Part shown: positions 1-55,509 of the stretch, in pieces
Layout: every line of letters starts with the position of its first letter
How positions within the stretch are numbered: position 1 is the first letter of the stretch
Assembly: GCF_964204645.1 (NCBI RefSeq)
Contig: NC_134025.1
Location: forward strand, 25,152,299 to 25,216,298
Direction of reading: 5' to 3'
DNA length: 64,000 nt
Source of the DNA: Tubulanus polymorphus
Taxonomy: Eukaryota > Animalia > Nemertea
Notes under the pieces: model-generated
Database searches by the model: none
Seen by the model: only the letters and a program-made list of their open reading frames with translations
Told to the model about the DNA's origin: nothing
Made by a program: the position numbers and the translations under genes

Positions 1-65
1 GTTAAATGTCGTATAAAAACTGACCATTGAACCCTTTGATAGTAGTATAATATGATATAATTTGT

Positions 66-1466
66 TTATTTCAGCATATCTTTCAAGTACTGGCGGGCGA
101 CTAATCTCTGTTTATGAAACAAATTCATGACGTCTTCAGCAAACTTAGATGGCATCTGATCATATTCGGTGTCGACCTCTGTCAGCCTTTCGACGGCCGC
201 TTCTTTATCGAATTTCTGACAGACCTCATTATTGTAAACGTCCATCGCTTTTCCCTTCAATCCCTTGCGTTTACACAACTCAAAAGCTAATCTGGACTCG
301 TCTATCTGACCGACACACTCGAACGCGTTGTGCTTTCCTAAACCCAGCATTTGGCGATAGTACACTTGATTTTCAGGCAGGTCCAGCAGGTTTTCCTTGA
401 ATATCGAGTCGACCAGATTTGTCGGCAGGTATGCCATATATTCTAGCCAAACGTAGGCGCACTTTGCGCATCTTTTGCACCATGGTTTCACCACGTTACA
501 CGAATGAGTATAAGGCAGGTGAACAGCACCAAACGAATTCAGCATAGTAAATATCAATACATCATTAATTGGTTTGAGAATACTGAAATATTTGAAGTTA
601 GAAATCAGGTTATCTCTAATGTAAGAATCAAACATCATCTCTTCTTCCTGACTCTTGCAATATTGATGATTAATGGGTAGTCCATTCTTCTCCCAAATCA
701 AATTCGGGTGTTCGGCGCTCTTTTCGTGGCCCAAGTTCATGTAGCGATATCGATATTGAAGAATGACTGGCAGCGATCCAAACACCGCACGAAGCGTTTC
801 ATCTTCTTGCAAGGTTTTTATACCCACATCATTCATGTGGACAATCGGACAATCTAAGAAGTCATCGTACATCGATATTTGATGATGTTTGCGCGATTTG
901 GTGCAATTATTTACTTGATCGCGAATAAGTCGAAGTTGTAAAGGTGAAGTGCCATAAATAGTGCCGCTATAACCAAGCGTGCCGTACTCGACTCCAACTT
1001 TTTCTAAAATGGTAGTGCACATCAGACTATCTTTACCTCCACCGTTCAAAGACAGCATCTCGGGCCCATCAGGTGGTGACATCTCAACGGGCACAGGAGA
1101 GCAACCACTTGGTTTATTCAAAAATGTTGGGCCTTTATAATCAGGGAGATCATTCTCGTACAACCATTGGGAATACGCACCCATGAAATGTTTTAGCCAC
1201 ATTTTCTCGAATGCTACCGTATGGTAGTGTTCATAACAACCCAGGTCGATTAACTTCGGTTTTAAACTTTGCAGTTTGCTCATCTCAAACGCAGCGATAT
1301 GGAAATACACCCTATCCATGTATTCTTTTCCGTACGTATCTTCCAGTTCGTAGAAATTGACATCGTGGTACCACAGTGATGTTGTAAATTGTAGATCACC
1401 AACACCATACACCATACTAATTTGGTGTTTGGCGCGGTTGTAACACTTCAACAAAACAACGGCCAT
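66..1466 (-). CDS. MurL-like (UDP-N-acetylmuramoyl-L-alanyl-L-glutamate epimerase-like) PP-loop ATP-dependent enzyme, tandem copy 1
   Basis: Intact uninterrupted 466-aa ORF. Motifs LNGGGKDS (PP-loop), HEKSAE..N, NHQYCKS, HSCN, WCKRCAKC and KHNAFECVG occur in the order recalled for bacterial MurL. Splice acceptor tatttcag lies 4 nt before the ATG. Confidence 0.8.
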   Translation of the reverse strand: MAVVLLKCYNRAKHQISMVYGVGDLQFTTSLWYHDVNFYELEDTYGKEYMDRVYFHIAAFEMSKLQSLKPKLIDLGCYEHYHTVAFEKMWLKHFMGAYSQWLYENDLPDYKGPTFLNKPSGCSPVPVEMSPPDGPEMLSLNGGGKDSLMCTTILEKVGVEYGTLGYSGTIYGTSPLQLRLIRDQVNNCTKSRKHHQISMYDDFLDCPIVHMNDVGIKTLQEDETLRAVFGSLPVILQYRYRYMNLGHEKSAEHPNLIWEKNGLPINHQYCKSQEEEMMFDSYIRDNLISNFKYFSILKPINDVLIFTMLNSFGAVHLPYTHSCNVVKPWCKRCAKCAYVWLEYMAYLPTNLVDSIFKENLLDLPENQVYYRQMLGLGKHNAFECVGQIDESRLAFELCKRKGLKGKAMDVYNNEVCQKFDKEAAVERLTEVDTEYDQMPSKFAEDVMNLFHKQRLVARQYLKDMLK

Positions 1467-1906
1467 GATACTGAAATATAAAATCCAGATTTCATGAATT
1501 CATGTTCTGTGATATATACCTTTGACGATAAAAACGGTATTCACACCAACATATATAATTGTACATATTGTAGTGTCAACCCTCACTATCTGCCACATCG
1601 GCCTTCTGCCAAATATGTTGAGTTGCCAGGTTTGGAAAATTTAGTTCATCGTACGTCTGTTAATTATATGGATCGTACTGCCCAATATGCGTCAAGCCTC
1701 CCAAATCCATATGGATTGATTGACATATCAAATGAAATCCATCTGTAAATTACTTGTATTCATTCATGTCCTTATTACATGAAATAACACACATATACAA
1801 CGCATGTATAGAGCATAGCCTAACGATCCAAGTAAACCCATTACGGCTAGAAATGACAAGACCATTTATCGGCCATCTTGAATCTGGTTGACCCACTTGC
1901 GTTTTT

Positions 1907-1996
1907 TATACATCCAGGGATGAAAAGTTACCTCAACGACTTGAATACAATGGAAAGGTTAGGGTTTCGGGAGGTAACCTTTCGTTCCTGGATATA
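1907..1996. mobile_element. Short fold-back (MITE-like) insertion
   Basis: Imperfect inverted arms atacatccagggatgaaaagttacctc / gaggtaacctttcgttcctggatata. Not seen in the homologous region upstream of copy 2 (~5000-5150). Confidence 0.45.
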
Positions 1997-2397
1997 CCAT
2001 AGCCCCCAACTAAATCGAAACTATTAAATCATGGTTGAATTACCGAATTCAAACTAGTTGAATATGGCCCCCAAATGCTGGAAAAACGCATCTGAGCACT
2101 TGAAATATAATTTTTTTCCGGGGGAGTGCCCCCGTCCACGTCCCTGAAGTGGGCTCGCGCCTTTGGCGCTCGTTTTCTGAGCACCGCCATGCTTTAAATT
2201 CGACCTAGCGAAAACACTGCATTATTATAGAGAAGATTATTAATACGTATGAAATGATGCTATAGCAATATTGTGTAATAGGCATCAGAGTTAATATTGT
2301 GATCCGTATTGGAGTGAACCAAAGATCCGTGAAAATAAATTGTATGTCTGATTATATGGGTCCTATATGCGTGCTAAAGAAACGTTGTTTTACCTAC

Positions 2398-2452
2398 CTT
2401 CACTTTATTCCAACTAAACTCCCTTTGCCTACTGGTACTAGCTCTATATATA
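2398..2452 (-). promoter_or_regulatory. Putative TATA box and non-coding first exon of MurL-like copy 1
   Basis: On - strand: TATATATA at 2445-2452, then consensus donor AAG|GTAGGT at 2398/2397. A homologous donor AAG|GTATGT lies at 5285/5284 for copy 2. Confidence 0.45.
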
Positions 2453-3167
2453 GATGTCTGGTGTTCTGACCTTTGTAGTGAGTTAGTCCTTTTAGTTCAT
2501 GGTGGCGCTAGCTGCATATACATGCCTTTATGCCTATTTTACTGAGAAAGACGCTAACAAAGAAGCCATATCTTTTTTTAGAACAGGAACCACGTCTATT
2601 TATTACTATAATCTATCAGTTCATAAATTCACAGCAGTGGTGTGTGTACTTTTAATAATCATAATGGCCAATGCTCTTTATATATTTATGTGGACTGCAT
2701 TAAACCTATCGGATTTTCATTTCGCTGTGAGCAATACATATTCAATCTATGATTCAAAATCGAATGTCGATATATCGCAATACGTTTAAAATGAAACCAG
2801 GTCCTCATTTCCTCAGGTTCATCTGATGTTTTGTGCCGAGATCGAGAGCGGGGCCATGGAAGTGCCCACAGACTATGTTCGTTTTTAATGGTGCGCACCA
2901 AACTTCCCGGTATAAATTTTTCCTTGATTTCAACACCGACATTGCAATGAGTTTCTTCATGTACATCGTTATATTCAAGTCAAAACGTTTTGAAGATACT
3001 ACTAAAAAGTTTTAATCAAAAAGCTAAAATCTAAATAAATTCAAATTAGATATGATACAAATTATTTGTAATATGTAAGTAACATTCAAGATGCAATCCA
3101 CCGACAAATTTGAGGGTTAATGTTGTTTTAGAAACTGACTATTAAATCTTATACGATATATACTTGT

Positions 3168-4568
3168 TTATTTCAGCATATCTTTCAAGTACTGGCGGGC
3201 GACTAATCTCTGTTTCTGAAACAGATTCATGACGTCTTCGGCAAATTTAGATGGTATCCGATCATATTCGGTGTCGACCTCTGTCAGCCTTTCCACGGCC
3301 GCTTCTTTATCGAATTTCTGACAGACCTCATTATTGTAAACGTCCATCGCTTTTCCCTTCAATCCCTTGCGTTTACACAACTCAAAAGCTAATCTGGACT
3401 CGTCGATCTGACCGACACACTCGAACGCGTTGTGCTTCCCTAAACCCAGCATTTGGCGATAGTACACTTGATTTTCAGGCAGGTCCAGCAGGTTTTCCTT
3501 GAATATCGAGTCGACCAGATTCGTCGGGAGATATGCCATATATTCTAGCCAAACATAGGCGCACTTTGCGCATCTTTTGCACCATGGTTTCGCTATGTTA
3601 CACGAATGAGTATAAGGCAGATGAACAGCATCAAACGAATTCAGCATGCTGAATATCAATACATCATTAATTGGTTTGAGAACGCTGAAGAACTTGAAGT
3701 TGGAAATCAGGTTATTTCTAATGTAAGAATCAAACATCATCTCTTCTTCCTGACTCTTGCAATATTGATGATTAATGGGTAGTCCATTCTTCTCCCAAAT
3801 TAAATTCGGGTATTCGGCGCTCTTTTCGTGGCCCAAGTTCATGTAGCGATATCGATACTGAAGAATGGCGGGCAGCGATCCAAACACCGCACGAAGCGTT
3901 TCATCTTCCTTCAGAGTTTTTGAACCGATAGCTTTCATGAAGAGAATCGGACAATCTAAGAAGTCATCGTACATCGATATTTGATGATGTTTGTGCGATT
4001 TGCTGCAATTATTTACTTGATCGCGAATAAGTCGATGTTGCAAAGGGGAAGTGCCGTAGACAGTATTGCTATAACCGAGCGTGTTGAACTCAACTCCAAC
4101 CTTCTCCAAAATGGTCGTGCACATCAGACTATCTTTACCTCCACCATTCAAAGACAGCATCTCAGGCCCATCAGGTGGTGACATCTGAACTGGCACAGGA
4201 GTGGAACCACTTGGTTTATTCAGAAACGTGGGTCCTTTATAATCAGGGAGATCATTTTCGTACAACCATTGGGAAAACGCACCCATGAAATGTTTTAGCC
4301 ACATTTTCTCGAATGCTTCCGTGTGGTAGTGTTCATAACAACCCAGGTCGATAAACTTCGGTTTTAAACTTTGTAACTTGTTCATCTCAAACGCAGCGAT
4401 ATGGAAATACAACCTATCCATGTATTCTTTTCCGTACGTATCTTCCAGTTCGTAGAAATTGACATCGTGGTACCACAGTGATGTTGTAAATTGTAGATCA
4501 CCAACACCATACACCATACTAATTTGGTGTTTGGCGCGATTGTAAGACTTCAACAAAACGACAGCCAT
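3168..4568 (-). CDS. MurL-like PP-loop ATP-dependent enzyme, tandem copy 2
   Basis: 466-aa ORF colinear with copy 1 and carrying the same motifs. Acceptor tatttcag lies 4 nt upstream of the ATG. Confidence 0.8.
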   Translation of the reverse strand: MAVVLLKSYNRAKHQISMVYGVGDLQFTTSLWYHDVNFYELEDTYGKEYMDRLYFHIAAFEMNKLQSLKPKFIDLGCYEHYHTEAFEKMWLKHFMGAFSQWLYENDLPDYKGPTFLNKPSGSTPVPVQMSPPDGPEMLSLNGGGKDSLMCTTILEKVGVEFNTLGYSNTVYGTSPLQHRLIRDQVNNCSKSHKHHQISMYDDFLDCPILFMKAIGSKTLKEDETLRAVFGSLPAILQYRYRYMNLGHEKSAEYPNLIWEKNGLPINHQYCKSQEEEMMFDSYIRNNLISNFKFFSVLKPINDVLIFSMLNSFDAVHLPYTHSCNIAKPWCKRCAKCAYVWLEYMAYLPTNLVDSIFKENLLDLPENQVYYRQMLGLGKHNAFECVGQIDESRLAFELCKRKGLKGKAMDVYNNEVCQKFDKEAAVERLTEVDTEYDRIPSKFAEDVMNLFQKQRLVARQYLKDMLK

Positions 4569-6031
4569 GATTCTGAAATAGACAATCCAGATATTTTGAA
4601 TTTCATGTTCTGCAATATATATTTGACGATAAGGTCATGAAAGCAATATACACGCATTATAATTGTATTTGTATATTGGACAGCTAACCCCCAATTACCT
4701 GCCACATCTGTCTCCCGCCCAAAATGCTGAATTCCCAATAAGAAAAATTACTTAGTTTATTAGGTAAGTGATGTTCGGTTTCTCAGCCTCCCTCCTATGC
4801 ATCCCCTATAGCAGTGGCATTAGTAAAAATGTACCAATTCATATAGATCGACATAATGAAATCCGTGTGTAAATTATTCGTATTAATCCCTGTCCTCATT
4901 ACATAGAATATCATATACAGCATAGCCTAACAACCAATGTAATCCCAAATTTCAGGCTAGAAACAAGACCATCTGGTCATCCATCTTGAATCTGAATGAG
5001 CCAATTGTTTTTGACGATGTAACTGAAACAAAATTATGGTTATGTCCAATATTCGTCTTCTGAAATATAGTTGATTTTACAAATAAAATGATGCCGAAAC
5101 ATTTTAATCATTCCTGATGATGTTGGCGGGAGAGATGTTTAGACAGGCCTGCTGTGTTAACCTTTCGATGTCTAAATCGGATATGAACCAAAGAAATATC
5201 CGATAGTGAAACTATTCAAGCGTATGTGTGACTATGTAGATATGTGCCCAGTATGCATGCACGAGAAATGTTCTTTACACATACCTTCCCCTTCTTGCAA
5301 CAATCCCGTCGACTACAATATTAGCTAATGTTCCGATGTTGGCAGTGAGTTTGCCGTTTAATACATGGTGGCGCTAGCTGTAATCTACGAGCAATTATCT
5401 AATTGTTAGATAATTGCTAGTAGCTGTAATAGGTATGCCTATTTATGTCACTAGACATGCCTACTTGGATAAACGTTAAAAAAGGTCACCGGTCTTCTTG
5501 TTTGCAAGAAGGAACCACGTCGATTTATGACATAGGCTATCAGTTCATTAATTCACAGCAGTGTGCGTGCACGTATAATAATCACATACGTTTTTTATTT
5601 ATTCGTAAACTGCATAAATCTGTTTTAACCATTTTGTTGGTGGAGAGCAATAATCGTTGGATCTTAATTCAAACAGAATGTCGATATACGTTTACAACGA
5701 AATTGTGTCCTCGTTTGCTGTAAAGAATTGCGGCATTTTGGTCCAGGTTATGATGTCCTGTGTACCACGGATTGACTGATAGTGAGAGCCGGGCCGTGTC
5801 CACAATGGCTTGTTCGTTTTAAGCACCGCAGGCCAAAATTCCCGCACTAAATCTAGAAAATTCAATATCTATAGTAAAACAAAGGTATTATTAACACCAG
5901 AATTATTCATTTCATAAGTATTATGTATTTGCCATCTATATATGCACTTGACATTCACAGGTTATCAATTTGGAATCGATTAATGGGAATTGTTTATCTA
6001 TTCTATTCGAGCCGTTGATCCCTGCGTTTCG

Positions 6032-7432
6032 TTATTTCAGCATTTCTCTAAAGTACTCTCGGGCAATTAATTTCTGCTTCTGATAGAGGTCCATGACGCC
6101 TTCAGCGAATTCAGATGGTATCCGATCATATTCGGTGTCGACCTCTGTCAGCCTTTCCACGGCCGATTCTTTATCGAAGTTCTGACAAACCTCGTTGATG
6201 TAGTCGTCCATCGCTTTTCCCTTCAATCCCTTACGTCTACACAACTCAAAGGCTAATTTGGATTCCTTGATCTGACCAATACACTCGAACGCATTGTGCT
6301 TCCCTAAACCCAGCATTTGGCGATAGTATACTTGATTTTCGGGCAGGTCCAGCAAGTTTTCCTTGAATATCGAGTCGACCAGATTCGTCGGCAGATATGC
6401 CATGTATCCTAACCAAACGTAGGCACACTTTGCGCATCTTTTGCACCATGGTTTCACCACGTTACACGAATGAGTATAAGGCAGGTGAACAGCATGAAAT
6501 GAATTCAGCATGCTGAATATCAATACATCATTAATTGGTTTGAGAATGCTGAAGAACTTGAAGTTGGAAATCAGGTTATCTCTAATGTAAGAATCAAACA
6601 TCATTTCTTCTTTCTGACTCTTGCAATATTGATGATTAATGGGTAGTCCATTCTTCTCCCAAATTAAATTCGGGTATTCGGCGCTCTTTTCGTGGCCCAT
6701 GTTCATGTAGCGATATCGATATTGAAGAATGACGGGCAGTGATCCAAAAACAGCAGGGAGCGTTTCATCTTCTGCTAATGTTCTTACACCGAAATCGTTC
6801 ATGTGGACAATCGGACAATCTAAGAAGTCATCGTACATTGATATTTGATGGTGTTTGTGCGATTTGCTGCAATTATTTACTTGATCGCGAATAAGTTTAA
6901 GTTGCAAAGGTGAAGTGCCGTAAATAGTACCGCTAAAACCAAGCGTGCCGTACTCGACTCCAGCCTTCTCAAAAATCGTCATGCATAGCAGACTATCTTT
7001 ACCTCCACCGTTCAAAGACAGTATCTCGGGCCCATCAGGTGGTGGCATCTCAACTGGCACAGAAGTGGAACCATTCGGTTTATTCAAAAATGTTGGGCCT
7101 TTATAATCAGGGAGATCATTCTCGTACAACCATTGGGCATAAGCACCCATGAAATGTTTTAGCCACATTTCCTCGAATGCTTCCGTATGGTAGTGTTCAT
7201 AACAACCCAGGTCGATAAACTTCGGTTTTAAACTTTGCAGTTTGTTCATCTCGAACGCAGCAACATTGAAATACACCCTATCCATGTATTCTTTTCCGTA
7301 TGCATCTTCCAGTTCGTAGAAATTGACATCGTGGTACCACAGTGATGTTGTAAATTGTAGATCATCGACACCATACACTATGCTAAGTTGATGTTTGGCG
7401 CGATTGTAAGATTTCAACAAAAGAACGGCCAT
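6032..7432 (-). CDS. MurL-like PP-loop ATP-dependent enzyme, tandem copy 3
   Basis: 466-aa ORF colinear with copies 1 and 2 but more diverged at the termini. Acceptor ttttag lies 12 nt upstream of the ATG. Confidence 0.8.
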   Translation of the reverse strand: MAVLLLKSYNRAKHQLSIVYGVDDLQFTTSLWYHDVNFYELEDAYGKEYMDRVYFNVAAFEMNKLQSLKPKFIDLGCYEHYHTEAFEEMWLKHFMGAYAQWLYENDLPDYKGPTFLNKPNGSTSVPVEMPPPDGPEILSLNGGGKDSLLCMTIFEKAGVEYGTLGFSGTIYGTSPLQLKLIRDQVNNCSKSHKHHQISMYDDFLDCPIVHMNDFGVRTLAEDETLPAVFGSLPVILQYRYRYMNMGHEKSAEYPNLIWEKNGLPINHQYCKSQKEEMMFDSYIRDNLISNFKFFSILKPINDVLIFSMLNSFHAVHLPYTHSCNVVKPWCKRCAKCAYVWLGYMAYLPTNLVDSIFKENLLDLPENQVYYRQMLGLGKHNAFECIGQIKESKLAFELCRRKGLKGKAMDDYINEVCQNFDKESAVERLTEVDTEYDRIPSEFAEGVMDLYQKQKLIAREYFREMLK

Positions 7433-8984
7433 GATTCATTCGATCTAAAATATAAAATTCACAAAAATTACCAAATACATAGTTATCCATGAGTATCAAT
7501 GGTTCTGTTCCTGTATATAAACGTACCATTAATTAGAACCCAATATGTCAGTCATCCGGCGCGCAAAAATGCGTTCTAACTGTGACTGAAATTCTTATCT
7601 CCCTCGTCACCGAAGGTCGTGCCCTGTGTATGCCTAGTAATATTCAATAATGACAGAACAGAATAAGAGCAGTTGAAAAGTTCACATGAAAGGTATTAAA
7701 ATGCATCGAGATTATCTTTCCAACTGCATAAAAGGCTTTTCCAAGATTGGCAGTGGCATACATTTTTTCGATGTCCAATATTGAAGCCTGCATCTCTGGC
7801 ACTGTCAAGACCCAACCATTACGAAGGAAATGTATCGTTGATACTATAGCAACTAGTAACTTCACTGACGAAGTGATATATTGCAGAGCTTTATTGAAAA
7901 CTATACATCGATACATTGTTACTGATTAAACGTTGTAACTGCATCAAATCTGACGTCAATGGAAGTTCATTGATCTTTGGCCAATCTTATACAACGTATA
8001 CGTGGTCGCAATACAGGAATTGGATTTGAATACACCGGCTAAACCAGTTATATTATATACACCTGTTCATAAAATATTCCGATATAAGGAGTTTTTGTTT
8101 TGTTTCATATTTGAGGCAATCCATATTCAAATATTATTTCACTAGACAATTTCGTTGTCAGTATATTCTAAGGTTTTACAATACCACTAGACATACCGCG
8201 TTGGAAAGATATCTTTCCATTAAAAAAAGGAAAAATGTATATGAAATTTGCTTTGGAAATGGGCGCACATTTACGTGCTACGTGATTATCAATGTCGGAA
8301 AAAATACCTTGACGTTTTCCTTACATTTTCAGATAAGGGCAGAAATTCCATTCTGCTTGAGCTCGGAGACGCGAAAAGAATGAAATGGCCTTATGAATAA
8401 AAAAGTGTTCACTATGTTTTGTCACTTCTTTCTACAACTTATTTACATGTTTTGCAGGGTAAATCATTTTCAGATTATTCTTTTTCCATTCATGATATTT
8501 CAATCGTGAATATGATTCTATCATTTGAGTGTAGACACGTTACCAAGGAATTAAATCCGTCTTTAATTCCTCCGTAACAACGTGGATTTGTATCAGGGGA
8601 TTGGATTACAACCGCGCCAGTACTGACAGCACAGAGCTATCAGTACGATATATTTTAATCTCAGTGTGCTTGTTGCTGTTGTTTTCTTAAATCCCCATTC
8701 ATTTGCGTTTGCAATCAACTATAAACGGTAGAACAGGCCCATTATTTCTCGACGGGGATTATTATTGTCATTCGGGTGGCTTGTATTGATCACGGTCTAA
8801 GCACCGCAAGACTGAAAACCGCGGTGAACGTAGCTATAGTACTGAGAGAGCTACCCGTGTTAATAAAGATATCATTAAGATATTCATTAGACGGAAATCA
8901 ACAAATTCATATTTCGGTGGCGAATTGGAATATAAAATTACTGTTCTAGGGTGTAAATCGATTTGCTTGGTGTTTCTGGTTAGA

Positions 8985-11900
8985 ATGGCCTCGGATTATC
9001 CAACGTTTGATGTCCCTCCAGAAACAGAGAAGGTAAATCTTAGTACATAAATGTCGTTACTAAGTGTTTAGCAGCAACTTCTGTACTCATCTCTGCATAG
9101 CAAACATCAATACTAAAATAACAAGTAATGTATTTTTATTTCTCAAAATTGTTGTTTTTCTTTTCGTGAAATTAGGTAGATCGTACGTACGGCAATTCAC
9201 CGAATTATCCAAGAACTGGGAATATTTCACCGGCAAAATTCCAAAGGACGTCTTCCACCACTCCCAGAAACAATCGGCACAGATCGGAGGATTCGGTAAA
9301 CGATGCCGATGACATCACTTCTGATAATGAAGATTCGAATATATTTTTGACGGAAATTGATTTCGTGCGAGAAGCACAAAAGGAGGAACAGTCGAGAATT
9401 GATGACGTAGTGCCGTCTGCTCCGAATGAATTCGACGAAGATGAAGTTTCGGACGCCGATACAGATTTGTCAGAATGCGAAGGTGCGTGACAACACGATT
9501 TCCTCAATATTTATATCGATGATTCATGAATGAAAAAGTGCAGGACCTTGTTCCACAGACATGAACTACATTTAACGACATATTCAGTAAAGATTAGATC
9601 TTCCAGTTATCAAACAGTGAAACTGGGTCCTGAATTCCGTCCTGAAAATGGGTTTTTGATTTTTTGAATCGCAAGACATTGGATCTCGACTAGATTTCTT
9701 AAAGATGAAATTTCAATTTCTATCTTATGGTCCGTTTCGAGATTTTCTCACTTGTGCAAAAATATCTGTGTATTTATATTTCGCAATATCATCATTTGTG
9801 ATAAGAAATTGCGTTACACATTTGAAATGCGTTATAGATATGTTTGACTTGCTTTGATTTTTGATCAAATCAAATGCATTTGATCATTAACTTTACATAT
9901 ATATTCTCTCACATGTCATGCTGTATTCAATCAATATGGCCATAATATGATATGAACCTAAATCACAAATAGACTTTAGTGCGGTTAATTGAAGTACGCA
10001 TGATAGAGTGTACACCAGTTATAAAACGGATTAAGATAATAGCGTAAAGCCCATTGTACGTGCTCAGGATCAATTAATCGTTAGTGCACGGATCGGCAGA
10101 CGAATTGAATTGAATTTACTACGAATAAATTCCGGCCAAAAACCGTTTAAGTTTATTCTGAAAATATTCCTTATTTGTACAGAAATAATAGAAAAATACC
10201 AACGTTAAATCGTATTCATTTGTGATCACAATCTATATTCAACGATGTTCTCAGGGTTGTACAGGTAGTTCGAGAAAAGGTCATGATTCTGATAAGCGAA
10301 GTACGTATATTCATCTACAGGCCTACCAAATAACCTTTTTGAAACATAAATGCATTTATACGTTAAACCGCCAAAGTCCAGATCGACAGTAGAAAACAAT
10401 AGAATATTGGACTATGGAAATTACATTTTGAAATTTTGTTTCCAAAGACTAAGCAGCTTATCTATTGACCCCTTAACCTATCACTGTTATCTACTTTGGA
10501 GCCTTTATCTTTATTTTTTCATATCCCATACTTGAATATTGAACTGTCTAGGTCATACCTTGGTGTAATCGGACTGATTACTCCGATGTCGTACTTAATT
10601 CATGTCTGAATTATTAAAAAATCGAACTACATTCAAAGGACTCTGAACTAATTTTCTAGCTATTCTTTCTTGTCTTTCTCCCTTTACTGCAGATTTTAAT
10701 CCGGACAAAAAAGAAGTCGACCTCAGCGGTTTAACCGGGTATATTGAAAAGTGTGAAGAACTGGGGGTCGTTCCGATTACTCCTTTTATCAAAAAGATGA
10801 ACCTGGAAACAATGGACATAAAGCACTACTGCTGTGGACCGGTTGGTGCCGAGGCAATGTCCCAGCCATTGATGGTAAATATTCAGACAAGTCGTAAACC
10901 ATTACGCCATCTATCAGACATCAGACATGATCGAAAAGTTTATGACTTTCAGATAAATACAACCTTGACAAAATTGAATCTCGAAGATAATGCTGTCGGA
11001 GCTGAAGGGGTGAAACATTTAGCAAAAATGCTATTAGAAAATTGTTATATATCGGAACTAGTAAGTGTATTCAGCCTTGTTCTGATGAAATATACATCTG
11101 TATATAAAATTCTTCATTTTTCTTGATTAGAATTTAGCGGGAAACGATCTTCGTAGTAACGGCGCTGAAGAACTCTGTACGGCGTTAAAAGCTAATCAGT
11201 TCATTACGAAGCTCAATGTTTCAGGTAAATAAAACGTTAGAAAATTGTTAAATTTATTTTCTAGCATTTGAAACGTCCTGGTTTTGACCCTTTGATTGCG
11301 ATTTGAAATTGAAGTTAATCTTTTTCTCAATTCAGGAAACCATCTCATAGACAGCGATGCAGATTTATTTGTTGAAGTATTAGAGGTATGCACTCAGCTT
11401 TCCTGTGTCATTACCAAAATTTTTCCATTTGAAAAACCTCCTAATTCGTACATTTGTAGGAAAACCGAGCATTACGAGAACTAGACCTGAGTCACAATGA
11501 ACTAGGAGATGCAGCCGGCGAAGAACTCGGAGAAGCCATAGGTAATGAACCGATACAACAAAGAGTGTTCACATTCTAACTTTATATAAGAAAAAAACGT
11601 ATTCATGTCTATAGAATACGGTATATTGTCGCGCATCTTTTATGACGGTATTGAGTCTTTCAATGAGCAATGACATAAACTGCCACGTGTCACCACCACG
11701 AGCCAATCTCATATGATATACCGCATGAAATAGAGATAAAAAGTCAATAAACTCTGATAAGATGTTCGCATGTGTGTGAAAAGTTCATTTTTCGGTTTCT
11801 GTGAAATTACTGCTTACATTGGGAGTGTCGCTGAGGATCGGCTTCACACTCAACATCTATCGGAATCTGTTGCTTCTTCTAATAAGAGTCAGGTGATAGA

Positions 11901-13284
11901 TACAAAATATAAAGAAAAAAAAATATTTCCTCTGCCTGTTTTGTTACTACCGGCTGTATAGAGATAAAAAGTCAATAAACTCTGATAAGATGTTCGCATG
12001 TGTGTGAAAAGTTCATTTTTCGGTTTCTGTGAAATTACTGCTTACATTGGGAGTGTCGCTGAGGATCGGCTTCACACTCAACATCTATCGGAATCTGTTG
12101 CTTCTTCTAATAAGAGTCAGGTGATAGATACAAAATATAAAGAAAAAAAAATATTTTCTCTGCCTGTTTTGTTACTACCGGCTGTATCGATTGAAGTAAA
12201 AAAAATTGTATTCGTAATTACTTTAAATGTTATGATTTACGCTTCTACCTAGCTCAAAATGATACCTTAGAAGTTCTGGATCTAAGTTGGAATCACATTC
12301 GTAGGGCTGGAGGAATCGCATTAGCCGAGGGACTGCAGGTATACACTAACAAACCCGATAACACACCTTGTTCATCTTATTGCAATTTCAAAACAAATTT
12401 CAACTTAATTGTTTGCTATAGGAAAATGTACGGCTGAAGAAGGTGAATTTAGCATGGAATGGTTTTGGCACTGAAGGTGGTGTAGCTATCGGTAAGGCTC
12501 TGATGGATAACCGAACACTTCTAGAACTCGATATCACAAGTAATCGCATGGATAACGAAGCAGCTGAAACTATCGCTAAGGCAATCAAAGTAAATGATAC
12601 TTTGGAAACATTGAAGGTAAAAAGGCCATCCGCCAATGCGTATATAGTTTTGAAAATGCTCAAGTAGCGATAATAATTCTTGAAATTATTTTTGCAGATC
12701 AGCGATAATGCATTTGATCATATTGCTGCAAACTCCCTTTTAGCGGCACTCCTAAAAAATGACTCATCTCAATTACAGTTACTTGATTTAAGGGTAGGTA
12801 CACGTAGAAGATCATCTCAGATACAAAATCAATCTATTCATTGATTCTTCTACTATAAAGAGTGATATTTCTTTTGATATCTAATCAATATTCATATTCT
12901 GACTGAATAAAACGAGACGTGATGAAGGGATCTAACTGAAATCCCCTCGGTTATAAATAATCTCTTCTAAAACTGAACATGATACCTCCCCGTAACAACC
13001 ATTGTTGATTTTATTGTCGGTAGAGTCCTTCTGTCACCAGACAGCCATTTTTCTATTCAATTCATCATTTTTGATCGTTGACACGGTCCTTTCAGAGCCA
13101 CGTCGTAAAAGATGAATTCATCTATATGTTGGAAGACTTGCACGAGGTCCTGCCGAAAATAAAGGTGCTGTATCGCTTTATATCAAGACTCCGGCCGCGA
13201 CCGCAGCCAGTGGCAGCATCTGGTGGATGTTGCGCCGGATGCAAGAATCCGATGGAAACGTCTGGAAATATCGTCGCCGAATGA
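8985..13284 (+). CDS. LRRC74: Leucine-rich repeat protein, LRRC74A/B-like (spliced)
   Basis: GT-AG exons in frame: 8985-9032, 9176-9482, 10693-10874, 10953-11060, 11131-11224, 11336-11385, 11460-11541, 12253-12338, 12422-12616, 12698-12793, 13096-13284. Acidic N-terminus with DTDL, then CEELGVVP and RI-type LRRs (LNLEDN, LDLSHN, LDLSWN, VNLAWNGFG). An optional small exon near 10256-10300 is uncertain. Confidence 0.8.
10558..10584. repeat. Short palindromic dispersed repeat, family A (CCTTGGAGTAATCGGACTGATTACTCC)
   Basis: Related copies at 23360-23382 and 28274-28298. Confidence 0.55.
11731..12186. repeat. Near-perfect 228-bp tandem duplication inside an LRRC74 intron
   Basis: Units 11731-11958 and 11959-12186. 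One substitution seen (tttcctctg vs ttttctctg). The ORF track shows identical peptides offset by 228. Confidence 0.9.
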
Positions 13285-13846: not shown

Positions 13847-15131
13847 TCAGAAATGCAGTGTAGAATCTAAAATGGGAATCGGCGATGTTCTCCTGTTCAT
13901 CATATTTACCTGCAAAATAGAAGGATTGAAATTTTCAGACAACGAATAAAAATCTTAATGAATATGGGAATCGAATGGAATGCAAGAATATTTCTAATTA
14001 GAATTGAAAGCTAACCAACCTAAATTTCGATTCAGAACAAAAGAAATGCTTTCATAATTTCTTTTTTCAAGTAGAATTACAAGAAATATTTAACATCATT
14101 CAGATATGTATTTCTATAATTCTAGTTTTCACCTTCATGATACTTTAAAATTGAGCTTTATTAACTCAGGCAGCACAATATTCAAATGTACAAAATGTTC
14201 ATATATTATTTGTAACTTATACATAAATGAATTTTGCCTAGTGCAAAAAACCGTCTGCCAAGAAAACAACTTATCTCAGATAAAATAAAATTACCGATAT
14301 ATAAGATGTTATAACAATCTGTAAGTTAAGCCAGTATGTATTACATGGTGCATTGTTCTACGATGGAATCAAAAGAAGTAGGAAAAATTCATTTCCAGGA
14401 GAGACGGGTGGCCTAAATCAAACAAGCGTAAACTCTCAAAATACAAAAACAAATATTGAAACATCTATCTTTTCATTATAATAAAGATTTCTAATTAAAA
14501 ATGGAATGAGAAAAGAGTCCATATTCATGTCAAAACTTACATTTTCGAATGAAATCCAGCGGACAGCATTTTCTTTGGTTGTTTGTAATTCCATCATGCG
14601 GACAGTTCGATTTTCAGAACAAGACCACTGTTCCTCGACCGGTAATCGCTGCATGTTCATCACATCGTGATCTTTGATCATTTCTTTCAGTTTGTTTATG
14701 TAATCGATTGCGACCCTCAGCGTTTTCACTTTTGACAGACGTTTGTGTTTGTTTTCGTACGGCACATGTCTTCGAAGTCGTATGAATGCGTTGTTGACCG
14801 CCTGCACGCGCCGTCTTTCACGGGCGTTCCGTTTTGCCACTAAATGCGGTGCTTTCTCTTTATGAGGAATATGTTTATAATTTGATTTTCCTCTCTTTTC
14901 CTTTTTTGATTGTTTTCCACTAGATTTCATCGAATTTTTCATCGCACAGCCGTCCTTTTCTTTTAAGTGCATGCACGAACCTCCGTTGTTGTTACCGCTT
15001 ATGGCGAACTCGTTGTTGGTTTCTCCGTGAGCGAAAGTTGCCATTTGGGACGAAATGTAACCGACACGTTTATCCAGCATTTCGGAAAACATGCAACTTC
15101 TTGGCGAACCCGGAGCCAACAAACTTTGCAT
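13847..15131 (-). CDS. Divergent achaete-scute family bHLH transcription factor (non-ASCa; ASCb/c or HLH-4-like)
   Basis: bHLH VAKRNARERRRVQAVNNAFIRLRRHVPYENKHKRLSKVKTLRVAIDYI. Main exon 15131-14541 ends at donor AAT|GTAAGT. Likely terminal exon 13909-13847 (tttgcag acceptor, VNMMNRR...LHF*); alternative 14412-14389 (ATRLSWK*). The unspliced ORF reads on to 14436. Confidence 0.8.
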
Positions 15132-20916: not shown

Positions 20917-21678
20917 ATGCAAGCCGCAGATATACTGAGCATTACGTTGTCTCAATTGGCAACAAATCCGAGGCGCATGCAACACAATGCACCGGCTCAG
21001 TATTACCCGTATCACTCGTACGGTACTGGTGAATTCCCGGGATTCAACGAAAGAAGCGACGCTGCTTTTACGCTGGGATCACCAGTCGGTGGTTCATCAG
21101 CCGGCACGACCCCGACGTCGACGCCTTTATCTTCCGATTCGAAAAGATACAAGAAAGTGAGAAATAAGGAATTACTACGCTGTAAACGTCGTCTCGATTT
21201 CAATAATAATTCCGGTCGGTCGGTGCCGACTAAGCCACTGACACCGGCCGTGCAGCGCAGGAATGAAAGAGAACGCAACCGAGTAAGATTGATTAACATG
21301 ACATTCGCCACGCTCAGACAACATTTACCAGGATCGAGTAACAACGGTTCTTCATCACCAGCAACCGTCAACAACGGCGGCGGCGGTCACAATCTACAAA
21401 GGAAACAAAAAATGAGCAAGGTTGACACTCTGAAATCGGCAATAGATTATATCAAGTACATGCAAGAGCTTCTCGACGAAAATGACGCAGTTGACGCAGC
21501 GTTTCGTGCAGGAACAGTAGTTCCGGTCCAGACGACGGCATACCAGCGGCCAGCGATGTTACCATTGTCGCCGACATCGATGTCCGTCAGTTCACCTGGG
21601 TCCGAATCTGCGTCGGATACTGATAACTTCTTGGCGGACGAAGATGACCTATTGGACTTCTCGAGCTGGTTCAATTGA
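20917..21678 (+). CDS. ASCL1: Achaete-scute homolog (ASCa, ASCL1-like) proneural bHLH, paralog 1
   Basis: Single-exon 253-aa ORF with ELLRCKRRL, AVQRRNERERNRVRLIN...KMSKVDTLKSAIDYI and the C-terminal ASCa motif EDDLLDFSSWFN. Confidence 0.92.
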   Translation: MQAADILSITLSQLATNPRRMQHNAPAQYYPYHSYGTGEFPGFNERSDAAFTLGSPVGGSSAGTTPTSTPLSSDSKRYKKVRNKELLRCKRRLDFNNNSGRSVPTKPLTPAVQRRNERERNRVRLINMTFATLRQHLPGSSNNGSSSPATVNNGGGGHNLQRKQKMSKVDTLKSAIDYIKYMQELLDENDAVDAAFRAGTVVPVQTTAYQRPAMLPLSPTSMSVSSPGSESASDTDNFLADEDDLLDFSSWFN

Positions 21679-24335: not shown

Positions 24336-24866
24336 ATGGATCGGTTGCAAGCTAGCGTCGCTTTAACTCCAGATCGACATTTAAATCTATTAGAATCCGT
24401 GTCACCAACGTTGTCAACGTCATCAAAATCTTCAAAAAAGTCACTGAAAGAAAACAACGAGCCAGATTTATTAAGATGTAAAAGGCGAATTGATTTTCCA
24501 CAAACCGCGGTCAAAAGGGCGGCCGTCGCACGAAGAAACGAGCGAGAAAGAAACCGCGTGAAACTGGTCAACTTAGGCTTCGCAACTTTAAGAGATCACG
24601 TGCCACAAGCAGGGAAAAATAAGAAAATGAGCAAAGTAGAAACTCTTCGATCTGCCGTGGACTATATCAAATATCTTAGAGATATATTGACTGACCAACA
24701 CGACGGTGTAAAGGGACTTGCAGCGAAACCCGGTAAAGACATTTCGCCTCCTCACTCAGTAGAAAGTTTGCCATCGCCGGGGTATGCTTCTGATTCGTCA
24801 TTCGATCACCAGGTCACATCGCCAGAAGATGACGAGTTACTGGATTTTGCCAGCTGGTTTCAATGA
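24336..24866 (+). CDS. ASCL1: Achaete-scute homolog (ASCa, ASCL1-like) proneural bHLH, paralog 2
   Basis: ATG at 24336 (the ORF track starts at an upstream GTG). PDLLRCKRRI, AVARRNERERNRVKLVNLGFATLRDHVP..KNKKMSKVETLRSAVDYI and C-terminal PEDDELLDFASWFQ. Confidence 0.92.
   Translation: MDRLQASVALTPDRHLNLLESVSPTLSTSSKSSKKSLKENNEPDLLRCKRRIDFPQTAVKRAAVARRNERERNRVKLVNLGFATLRDHVPQAGKNKKMSKVETLRSAVDYIKYLRDILTDQHDGVKGLAAKPGKDISPPHSVESLPSPGYASDSSFDHQVTSPEDDELLDFASWFQ

Positions 24867-35302: not shown

Positions 35303-55509
<20,207 letters not shown>

What the first reader, a model, noticed from the sequence alone, without database searches (positions are those of the whole stretch)
1467..5330. MurL-like genes look domesticated: 5'UTR intron and TATA promoter duplicated with the gene
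Seen: each ATG is preceded at 4-12 nt by a pyrimidine-rich AG acceptor (1471/1472, 4573/4574, 7445/7446). Homologous strong donors lie upstream (AAG|GTAGGT at 2397; AAG|GTATGT at 5284), with TATATATA at 2445-2452. Inference: an intronless foreign CDS was captured by splicing onto a host non-coding first exon before the tandem duplication. This argues against bacterial contamination.
Basis: partly seen in the sequence, partly recalled or inferred. Interest (0 to 1): 0.7.

Follow-up and report, generated by a model that had tools for sequence, protein, structure and literature searches.

The report
Bacterial ergothioneine-cluster enzyme tamed by worm
An animal genome, likely a ribbon worm's, carries three tandem copies of a gene of bacterial origin, at least one of which is transcribed and spliced through an intron in its 5' leader; its bacterial relatives sit beside ergothioneine-synthesis genes rather than cell-wall genes, so the worm likely uses it to modify ergothioneine or a related histidine betaine.

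Summary
The 5'UTR intron is real. RNA-type contigs from two studies join 5285 to 4572 exactly as predicted (GT-AG, 712 nt), and DNA contigs are unspliced there. Copy 1's donor and intron are homologous but were not seen spliced. The acceptor is homologous in all three copies, so it predates the triplication. Contamination is excluded.

The TATA claim fails. TATATATA at 2445-2452 has no counterpart in copy 2 and aligns inside copy 2's transcribed exon 1. The duplicated promoter candidate is a conserved block about 140 nt further upstream. Capture of a pre-existing host exon was not shown.

The protein is not a true MurL. It has a QueC/MurL fold. Its bacterial subfamily lies within 5 kb of egtD or egtB in 26 of 38 well-flanked loci and has no Mur ligase nearby (0 of 102 loci), whereas true MurLs have murD adjacent (19 of 20). 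Five animal sequences form one clade (single old transfer); dN/dS is 0.20-0.26.

Best reading: a domesticated ATP-dependent adenylating enzyme, likely an epimerase acting on ergothioneine or hercynine (about 45%). Domestication through a leader intron has precedent (aphid ldcA); I found no paper on the egt-linked family or its animal transfer.

The parts
66..1466 (-). Copy 1 CDS, intronless, 466 aa, QueC/MurL-fold enzyme
   Evidence: identical to P0001; one X3 piece at 912-1070 with 1 difference, where copy 2 differs at 20 places: weak hint of expression
1471..2397 (-). Copy 1 predicted 5'UTR intron, 927 nt (donor AAG|GTAGGT at 2397, acceptor AG at 1472/1471); holds repeat pieces at about 1900-2220
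   Evidence: homologous to the verified copy-2 intron (3' part 79% vs 60% shuffled); splicing not observed
2398..2584 (-). Copy 1 predicted non-coding exon 1; its 5' end is inferred from copy 2
   Evidence: 75% identical to copy-2 exon 1 region vs 60% shuffled
2445..2452 (-).
2492..2514 (-). Conserved exon-1 motif ending in a two-codon uORF (GCCACC-ATG-AAC-TAA)
2585..2661 (-). Conserved block, likely promoter of copy 1; abuts the 3' end of copy-2 transcripts
   Evidence: 88% identical to 5510-5584; X3 contig ends at 2635, X2 at 2679
2635..3167 (-). Copy 2 3'UTR; ATTAAA at 2656-2651 about 20 nt before the X3 contig end
   Evidence: contigs cannot prove an end
3168..4572 (-). Copy 2 exon 2: 4-nt leader plus intact intronless CDS (3168-4568), the expressed copy
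   Evidence: X2 contig of 2105 nt and X3 contig of 1546 nt, 0 differences
4573..5284 (-). Copy 2 5'UTR intron, 712 nt, GT-AG, verified
   Evidence: joint 4572/5285 in X2 and X3; unspliced X1 contig 4509-6142
5285..5495 (-). Copy 2 non-coding exon 1 (at least 211 nt), with uORFs of 13 aa (ATG 5458) and 2 aa (ATG 5366)
5375..5430 (.). Palindromic repeat insertion flanked by a 10-nt direct repeat in copy-2 exon 1, absent from copy 1
5510..5584 (-). Conserved block, likely promoter of copy 2; CATAAAT at 5529-5523 lies 28-34 nt before the contig's 5' end
   Evidence: sub-blocks 26/27 and 19/21 identical to copy 1, next best in the window 19/27 and 14/21; start site itself not shown
6032..7432 (-). 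Copy 3 CDS, intact, 466 aa; this exact protein is not in the protein collection; no spliced contig seen
7445..7460 (-). Copy 3 acceptor, homologous to copy 1's (14/16), 8 nt further from the ATG; the extra bases add an out-of-frame ATG at 7439
8448..11541 (+). Host multi-exon LRR gene, head-to-head with copy 3 (continues to the right)
   Evidence: 6 GT..AG joints in X2; LRR_6; open frame across the joints

Best explanation
These are three tandem copies of a gene of bacterial origin fixed in an animal genome (likely a ribbon worm); copy 2 is transcribed from a non-coding first exon spliced onto the intronless coding exon, and the protein is a predicted ATP-using QueC/MurL-fold enzyme that likely adenylates the carboxylate of ergothioneine or hercynine and likely inverts its alpha-carbon, rather than acting on peptidoglycan. 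SHOWN: splicing of copy 2; homologous acceptor in all three copies; homologous promoter block, exon 1 and donor in copies 1 and 2; one animal clade; purifying selection; egtBD linkage of the bacterial subfamily. INFERRED: a single old transfer, then gain of a leader intron, then tandem duplication (copy 3 split first and lost or replaced its upstream part) with ongoing gene conversion; the promoter is the block at 5510-5584 / 2585-2661; copy-2 transcripts end on copy 1's promoter and may dampen it. INFERRED CHEMISTRY: acyl-AMP formation as proposed for MurL, with the trimethylammonium group acidifying the alpha-H and giving one-way L-to-D conversion (amide formation, as in QueC/Cap9, is the second option). 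Odds: domestication with leader intron 0.97; adenylating enzyme 0.85; the bacterial family acts on ergothioneine/hercynine 0.7; the worm enzyme still does 0.45.
For: Splice joint in 2 of 5 runs laid, from two studies; X2 also splices 6 host introns; X1 is unspliced and X4 (same sample as X2) covers the intron. Acceptor uniqueness. dN/dS 0.20, 0.25, 0.26; GC 0.42 and GC3 0.47-0.50, like the three host bHLH ORFs at 0.39-0.51. Three window proteins plus two Tubulanus-named proteins form one clade, SH-aLRT 100 in three quick trees; the best bacterial hits are 51% identical. AlphaFold pLDDT 96; best fold matches QatC, QueC, Cap9 (QueC 3bl5 Z 13.4, rmsd 3.7, 188 aligned). Copy 2 keeps 38 of 39 positions shared between the subfamily and true MurL (GGGKDS, E248, N266-H267-Q268, K271, S322-C323-N324, C330/C333/C336, E383-C384) and 56 of 68 subfamily-specific positions. 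egtD or egtB within 5 kb in 26 of 38 near-family loci with >=2.5 kb on both flanks and in 18 of 64 shorter loci, vs 0 of 20 distant MurL loci. Neighbours pass the TIGR03438 cut-off (5 of 5 EgtD-like tested) and the TIGR03440 cut-off (5 of 7 EgtB-like tested). In one sample of 401 genomes, all 8 with the near family encode egtD against a background of 185 of 401 (hypergeometric about 0.002, relatedness ignored, one of the 8 was the seed). A tree holding the animals with the Beggiatoa/Kentron-type clade (egt-linked in 5 of 5 loci with context) scored 3.5 lnL higher than the free tree, p-AU 0.57.
Against: No enzyme assay exists; substrate rests on gene neighbourhood alone. 12 of 38 well-flanked near loci have no egt gene within 5 kb, and some of the 26 are close kin. 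The donor lineage is unresolved: free trees put the animals with P0050/P0057 (no context) and L033 (no egt; neighbours are an FAD oxidase, a PhyH dioxygenase and a sulfotransferase), or outside the main clade. Copy 2 has changed 12 of 68 subfamily-specific positions (e.g. R102L, C141N, P225L, S227A, W269Y, G270C), so the substrate may have drifted. No egtD/egtB was seen in the window's ORFs and the host genome could not be searched. Copies 1 and 3 were not seen spliced. Run types are not on record; RNA status is inferred from GT-AG joints. Contigs cannot fix a start site.
Confidence: 0.45

Rival explanations
1. Same domesticated gene, but the worm enzyme has drifted to another substrate: a host amino-acid derivative or peptide C-terminus that it epimerises or amidates (for example a secreted defensive or mucus component).
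For: 12 of 68 subfamily-specific residues changed in copy 2 while the shared catalytic core is kept; long stem branch and deep paralog divergence (51% to P0003); some near loci have other tailoring neighbours (L033; radical-SAM neighbours in 4 of 38).
Against: 56 of 68 subfamily positions are kept; no positive evidence for any alternative substrate.
Confidence: 0.35
2. [quoted passage not shown]
For: Only NCBIfam hit is NF041275; precomputed PF26298/PF26299 and source names say epimerase-like; 38 of 39 shared core positions kept.
Against: 87-95 bits vs cut-off 700, whereas murD-linked genes score 267-823; Mur ligase adjacent in 19 of 20 distant loci and in 0 of 102 near loci; true MurLs form a separate clade, SH-aLRT 100. 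The substrate is a cytoplasmic bacterial precursor (PMC8788868 passages).
Confidence: 0.07
3. On the origin of the leader (independent of function): exon 1 and promoter were captured from a pre-existing host gene or from the divergent promoter of the neighbouring LRR gene, rather than arising from flanking DNA after insertion.
For: Copy 3 lies head-to-head with the LRR gene about 1 kb away; exon 1 carries a conserved motif with a uORF.
Against: The promoter blocks and exon-1 motif occur only twice in the window, both at these genes; no homology to the copy 3/LRR intergenic DNA; the transfer is too old to see the insertion site.
Confidence: 0.25
4. Bacterial contamination or mis-assembly.
For: Intronless CDS with 44-51% identity to bacterial proteins.
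Against: Spliced contigs in two studies; contiguous DNA contigs; animal neighbours; 32-Mb contig; further animal homologs on other long contigs.
Confidence: 0.01

Closest known systems
Aphid ldcA (Wolbachia-like LD-carboxypeptidase transferred to the pea aphid; PMC2662799, passages read)
   Same: Bacterial gene in an animal, two exons, ORF wholly in exon 2, spliceosomal intron ahead of it, polyadenylation signal.
   Different: Different phylum, donor and enzyme; here tandem triplication with conversion and no known endosymbiont link.
[quoted passage not shown]
   Same: Same length and two-domain Pfam architecture; 39 conserved positions shared with the subfamily, including PP-loop and Cys cluster.
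   Different: Far below the family cut-off, separate clade, no murD neighbour; subfamily is egtBD-linked.
QueC and its relatives QatC and Cap9 (PDB 3bl5, 9y01, 9nto)
   Same: Best structural matches for residues about 134-350; adenylation of a carboxylate (recalled chemistry).
   Different: 11-16% identity; extra N- and C-terminal domains; no que or defence-system context among scanned neighbours.
Ergothioneine gene clusters egtB/egtD with ABC betaine-type transporter; metallopterin-dependent synthase MES (PMC9516567, one passage read)
   Same: The bacterial subfamily sits in such clusters; one locus (L025) reads egtD - molybdopterin enzyme - this gene.
   Different: Only 8 of 185 egtD-bearing genomes in the sample carry it, so it is accessory; the text searches and passages read do not mention it.

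Membership tests
MurL (NF041275) | Score above curated cut-off of 700 bits | tested here: not met
   87-95 bits; the model is tuned to Xanthomonadales, but other murD-linked genes still score 267-435
MurL (NF041275) | murD2 adjacent (in bacterial relatives) | tested here: not met
   0 of 102 near-family loci vs 19 of 20 distant loci
MurL (NF041275) | Groups with murD-linked MurLs in a tree | tested here: not met
   six MurLs form their own clade, SH-aLRT 100 (quick tree)
MurL (NF041275) | PP-loop, NHQ-K, SCN, WC-xx-C-x-KC and FEC core | tested here: met
   38 of 39 shared positions kept in copy 2
MurL (NF041275) | [quoted passage not shown] | not testable with these tools
   needs an assay
QueC-like PP-loop adenylating enzymes | QueC-type fold | tested here: met
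   Foldseek E 1e-5 to 1e-3; Z 13.4 and 13.1
QueC-like PP-loop adenylating enzymes | Acyl-adenylate formation; metal bound by the Cys cluster | not testable with these tools
   Cys 323, 330, 333, 336, 384 invariant in 122 sequences; activity untested
Ergothioneine-pathway accessory enzyme (proposed) | Linkage to histidine-specific egtD and egtB in bacteria | tested here: met
Ergothioneine-pathway accessory enzyme (proposed) | Animal clade descends from an egt-linked donor | tested here: inconclusive
   AU test does not reject (p 0.57); free trees differ
Ergothioneine-pathway accessory enzyme (proposed) | Acts on ergothioneine or hercynine | not testable with these tools
   needs an assay
Domesticated bacterial HGT gene in an animal | Flanked by host genes on host DNA | tested here: met
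Domesticated bacterial HGT gene in an animal | Spliceosomal intron in the transcript | tested here: met
   copy 2 only
Domesticated bacterial HGT gene in an animal | Purifying selection and host-like composition | tested here: met
   (Nei-Gojobori between paralogs; conversion affects dS)
Domesticated bacterial HGT gene in an animal | Absent from other animals, present in bacteria | tested here: inconclusive
   only two animal-named hits among the 120 of 558 listed and none among 26 shorter hits; the profile-wide search could not be run; distant homologs in a fungus and an amoeba are mentioned in PMC5808125
TATA-box promoter at 2445-2452 | Conserved between duplicates and about 30 nt upstream of the start | tested here: not met
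   absent in copy 2; aligns inside exon 1; a private short exon in copy 1 is not excluded

The most novel reading that the evidence does not exclude
An undescribed, widely mis-annotated enzyme family converts ergothioneine (or hercynine) into its D-form or an amide in an ATP-dependent step, hiding it from L-specific transporters and degrading enzymes; ribbon worms took this enzyme from marine bacteria once, long ago, wired it into host transcription through a leader intron, and amplified it - an animal that chemically edits ergothioneine.
Probability: 0.3. Interest if true: 0.85.

Novelty: new variant of a known kind. Interest (0 to 1): 0.6.

Why it matters
Gene structure alone would be a new case of a known route (a bacterial ORF made expressible by a non-coding first exon). 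The added value is the donor family. Hundreds of proteins carrying MurL-family domains appear instead to be accessory enzymes of ergothioneine clusters, pointing to an unknown ergothioneine or hercynine derivative. An animal has kept and multiplied the enzyme under purifying selection. Both the bacterial and the worm enzyme can be tested with one simple ATP/ergothioneine assay.

Tried and rejected
No whole genome was held, so host egtD/ovoA, further paralogs left of position 1 and the origin of exon 1 could not be searched. No run is on record as RNA. X5 (guessed RNA, third study) gave only one 36-nt partial piece and no cover of the LRR control: uninformative. Lack of contigs on copies 1 and 3 is no evidence of silence, because contigs drop rare variants. 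The apparent 'variants' on copy 3 are not editing: they equal copy 1/2 alleles. Pfam-A copy: no hit but a sub-threshold NleG stretch, rejected. PDB by sequence: 0 hits. Rfam 1-12000: 0. Viral contigs: none. Bacteroidota sample: 1 of 401, the seed only. Pseudomonadota sample: 19 of 401, of which 18 are distant MurL-type. The molybdopterin genes about 3-4 kb from L010-L012 and L082 were not counted as MES. The careful tree did not finish; all trees are quick trees with SH-aLRT only (one search used 59 of 120 hits; searches used chosen subsets of 52 and 32 rows). Loci L098-L108 were dropped from counts as short duplicates of L003/L109-L117. The EgtD/EgtB HMMs were seeded from 8 and 7 of these loci. 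The representative-protein search never ran (queue full, 7 tries). Literature searches with zero hits: ergothioneine+EgtD+MurL, 4 of 6 terms on EgtB/EgtD/epimerase/PP-loop, ergothioneine+QueC+EgtD, ergothioneine+ovothiol+Nemertea. Listings only, nothing on this gene by title or abstract start: (20 of 36 listed). Passages without mention: PMC11030361, PMC13547098, PMC7738191 (not relevant). No supplements were read; gene-neighbourhood tables in the supplements of the ergothioneine papers may list this family. Most subscription papers are not in the library. Earlier findings: none returned. No complex prediction was sent (enzyme-substrate question).
Full report
WHAT IS THERE. Three intact, intronless 466-aa ORFs lie head-to-tail on the minus strand (66-1466, 3168-4568, 6032-7432), 86-92% identical as proteins. 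To the right are a spliced LRR gene and three bHLH ORFs. The nearest named homolog of the bHLH ORF at 20917 is from the ribbon worm Lineus longissimus (51%), so the host is an animal, likely a nemertean. Copies 1 and 2 are already in NCBI/UniRef as proteins on a 32-Mb contig; copy 3 is not. Public gene models may therefore already show the UTR intron.

CHECK OF THE OBSERVATION. All coordinates given are correct. Laying four runs on 1-12000 gave a joint from 4572 to 5285, ends CT..AC on the plus strand (GT..AG on the gene's strand), in 2 of 4 runs: X2 (2105-nt contig = 5495-5285 + 4572-2679, no differences) and X3 (another study, 32 nt on the short side) (repeated). X2 also splices six introns of the LRR gene, so it behaves as RNA. 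X1 runs unspliced across 4509-6142, and X4, from the same sample as X2, covers the intron, so the joint is not a genomic deletion. No joint was seen for copy 1 or 3; contigs drop rare variants, so this says nothing about silence.

DID THE INTRON PRECEDE THE DUPLICATION? For copies 1 and 2, yes. Upstream block, exon 1, donor, intron and acceptor align (75-88% vs about 60% shuffled for the blocks; local score 376 vs shuffled max 57). For copy 3 only the acceptor is recognisable, but it is convincing: copy 1's 16-nt acceptor is matched at >=14/16 at just three places in 128,000 positions, the three acceptors. Copy 3's donor and promoter could not be identified. It faces the LRR gene head-to-head about 1 kb away and its acceptor shift adds an out-of-frame ATG.

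THE PROMOTER. The best-conserved non-coding DNA is the block 5510-5584 / 2585-2661 (88%; sub-blocks 26/27 and 19/21, unique in the window). It carries CATAAAT (AATAAAT in copy 1) 28-34 nt before the contig's 5' end. This is the likely promoter (inference; contigs cannot show a start). Copy-2 transcripts end at about 2635-2679, on copy 1's block, which might dampen copy 1 (speculation). Nothing shows that exon 1 was an older host exon.

ORIGIN. Of 558 homologs the best 120 were listed: two proteins named from Tubulanus polymorphus (69% and 51%), then bacterial or unnamed metagenomic proteins at <=51%. The five animal sequences form one clade with SH-aLRT 100 (four of them), with deep internal branches, so one old transfer is inferred. 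No Tubulanus hit appeared for the bHLH query, so the two Tubulanus proteins may be dispersed paralogs in the window's own species rather than orthologs in a second one; I cannot tell. No Lineus hit was among the 120 listed. dN/dS is 0.20-0.26 and GC/GC3 resemble the host ORFs. Mosaic alleles in X1 and X4 indicate conversion between copies, so dS understates the age of the duplications.

WHAT THE PROTEIN IS. The only NCBIfam hit is MurL at 87-95 bits against a cut-off of 700. The model (pLDDT 96) matches QatC, QueC and Cap9 best: a PP-loop adenylating fold with an invariant Cys cluster. A profile of the 122 closest sequences splits bacterial hits into a near group (>400 bits) and a far group (100-150 bits). 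The far group is true MurL: murD above cut-off directly downstream in 19 of 20 loci (one contig ends), no egt gene in 20 of 20. The near group has no Mur ligase in 102 of 102 loci. It has egtD or egtB within 5 kb in 26 of 38 loci with at least 2.5 kb on both sides (egtD 24, egtB 26, betaine-type ABC transporter 15) and in 18 of 64 shorter loci, in several gene orders and across clades (starred branches force at least 7 changes of the label). The neighbours pass curated EgtD (5 of 5) and EgtB (5 of 7) cut-offs. Five genomes without adjacent egt genes all encode egtD elsewhere. In one phylum sample, 8 of 8 carriers have egtD against 185 of 401 overall, and only those 8 of the 185 carry the gene: an accessory, downstream enzyme.

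MECHANISM. MurL uses ATP, releases AMP and converts a C-terminal L-Glu one way to D, probably through an acyl-adenylate (passages of PMC8788868 and PMC5808125). The near family shares 39 conserved positions with MurL and has 68 of its own; copy 2 keeps 38 and 56 of them. The simplest reading is the same chemistry on another carboxylate, that of ergothioneine or hercynine, whose trimethylammonium group would acidify the alpha proton (my chemical inference). Amide formation as in QueC/Cap9 (recalled) is the alternative outcome. In the worm the substrate would come from diet or microbes; this step is the weakest, because 12 family-specific residues changed and the donor lineage is unresolved (a tree with the egt-linked Beggiatoa/Kentron-type clade as sister is not rejected and scored higher, p-AU 0.57).

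COMPARISON AND NOVELTY. A bacterial ORF expressed from exon 2 behind a non-coding exon is known from aphid ldcA (passages of PMC2662799). The gene is not a member of MurL by score, clade or context, though it likely works like one. Four searches for a link between this family and ergothioneine, or between ergothioneine and nemerteans, gave no paper; the library lacks most subscription papers and no supplements were read.

VERDICT. Observation partly confirmed (intron verified for copy 2, TATA wrong). Interpretation partly supported (domestication yes, host-exon capture unproven). The more interesting result is the donor family and its likely substrate. Interest 0.6.

Noticed in passing
window 6017-6364 (run X4) and 6294-7364 (run X1): Mosaic alleles: an X4 contig equals copy 3 over 6017-6165 but carries 21 of 21 copy-2 letters over 6166-6355; X1 contigs on copy 3 carry 10 of 10 copy-1 letters. 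Suggests gene conversion or unequal crossing-over polymorphism among the copies.
   Followed up: partly
window 2492-2514 and 5358-5380 (minus strand): A 17-nt identical motif ending in GCCACCATG, followed by one codon and TAA, in exon 1 of both copies and nowhere else in the window: a conserved minimal uORF in strong context, or a protein-binding site (it resembles half a CTCF motif, recalled).
   Followed up: partly
window 5375-5430: Short palindrome flanked by a 10-nt direct repeat inserted in copy-2 exon 1; the element occurs in many other contigs of X1-X4, likely a small transposon footprint.
   Followed up: partly
window 8448-11541 (+): Spliced LRR gene head-to-head with copy 3; possible shared bidirectional promoter.
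   Followed up: partly
window 14436-15131 (-), 20917-21678 (+), 24336-24866 (+): Cluster of three bHLH ORFs; the one at 20917 is achaete-scute-like by search, the other two look similar.
   Followed up: partly
window 11730-12190: Tandem duplication of about 230 nt at 99% identity.
   Followed up: no
window 43386-43527: Long (TA)n microsatellite.
   Followed up: no
L025:45-4595: egtD, a 728-aa molybdopterin enzyme and the MurL-fold gene in one overlapping run: possibly a metallopterin ergothioneine synthase without the fused desulfurase.
   Followed up: partly
L001, L019, L020, L023, L035, L039, L042, L111: An unnamed 500-aa radical-SAM-like protein recurs beside the bacterial gene, sometimes with egtBD and a heavy-metal P-type ATPase (L035 by position and length only): a second candidate tailoring enzyme.
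   Followed up: partly
L018:5-2361; P0024/P0027: Some bacteria also carry the gene as adjacent duplicates (L018; consecutive locus tags in an Ardenticatenaceae record).
   Followed up: no
L116-L135: murL-murD pairs occur in two Myxococcota genomes (G111, G146) besides Pseudomonadota, a group not named in the passages read on MurL's range.
   Followed up: no
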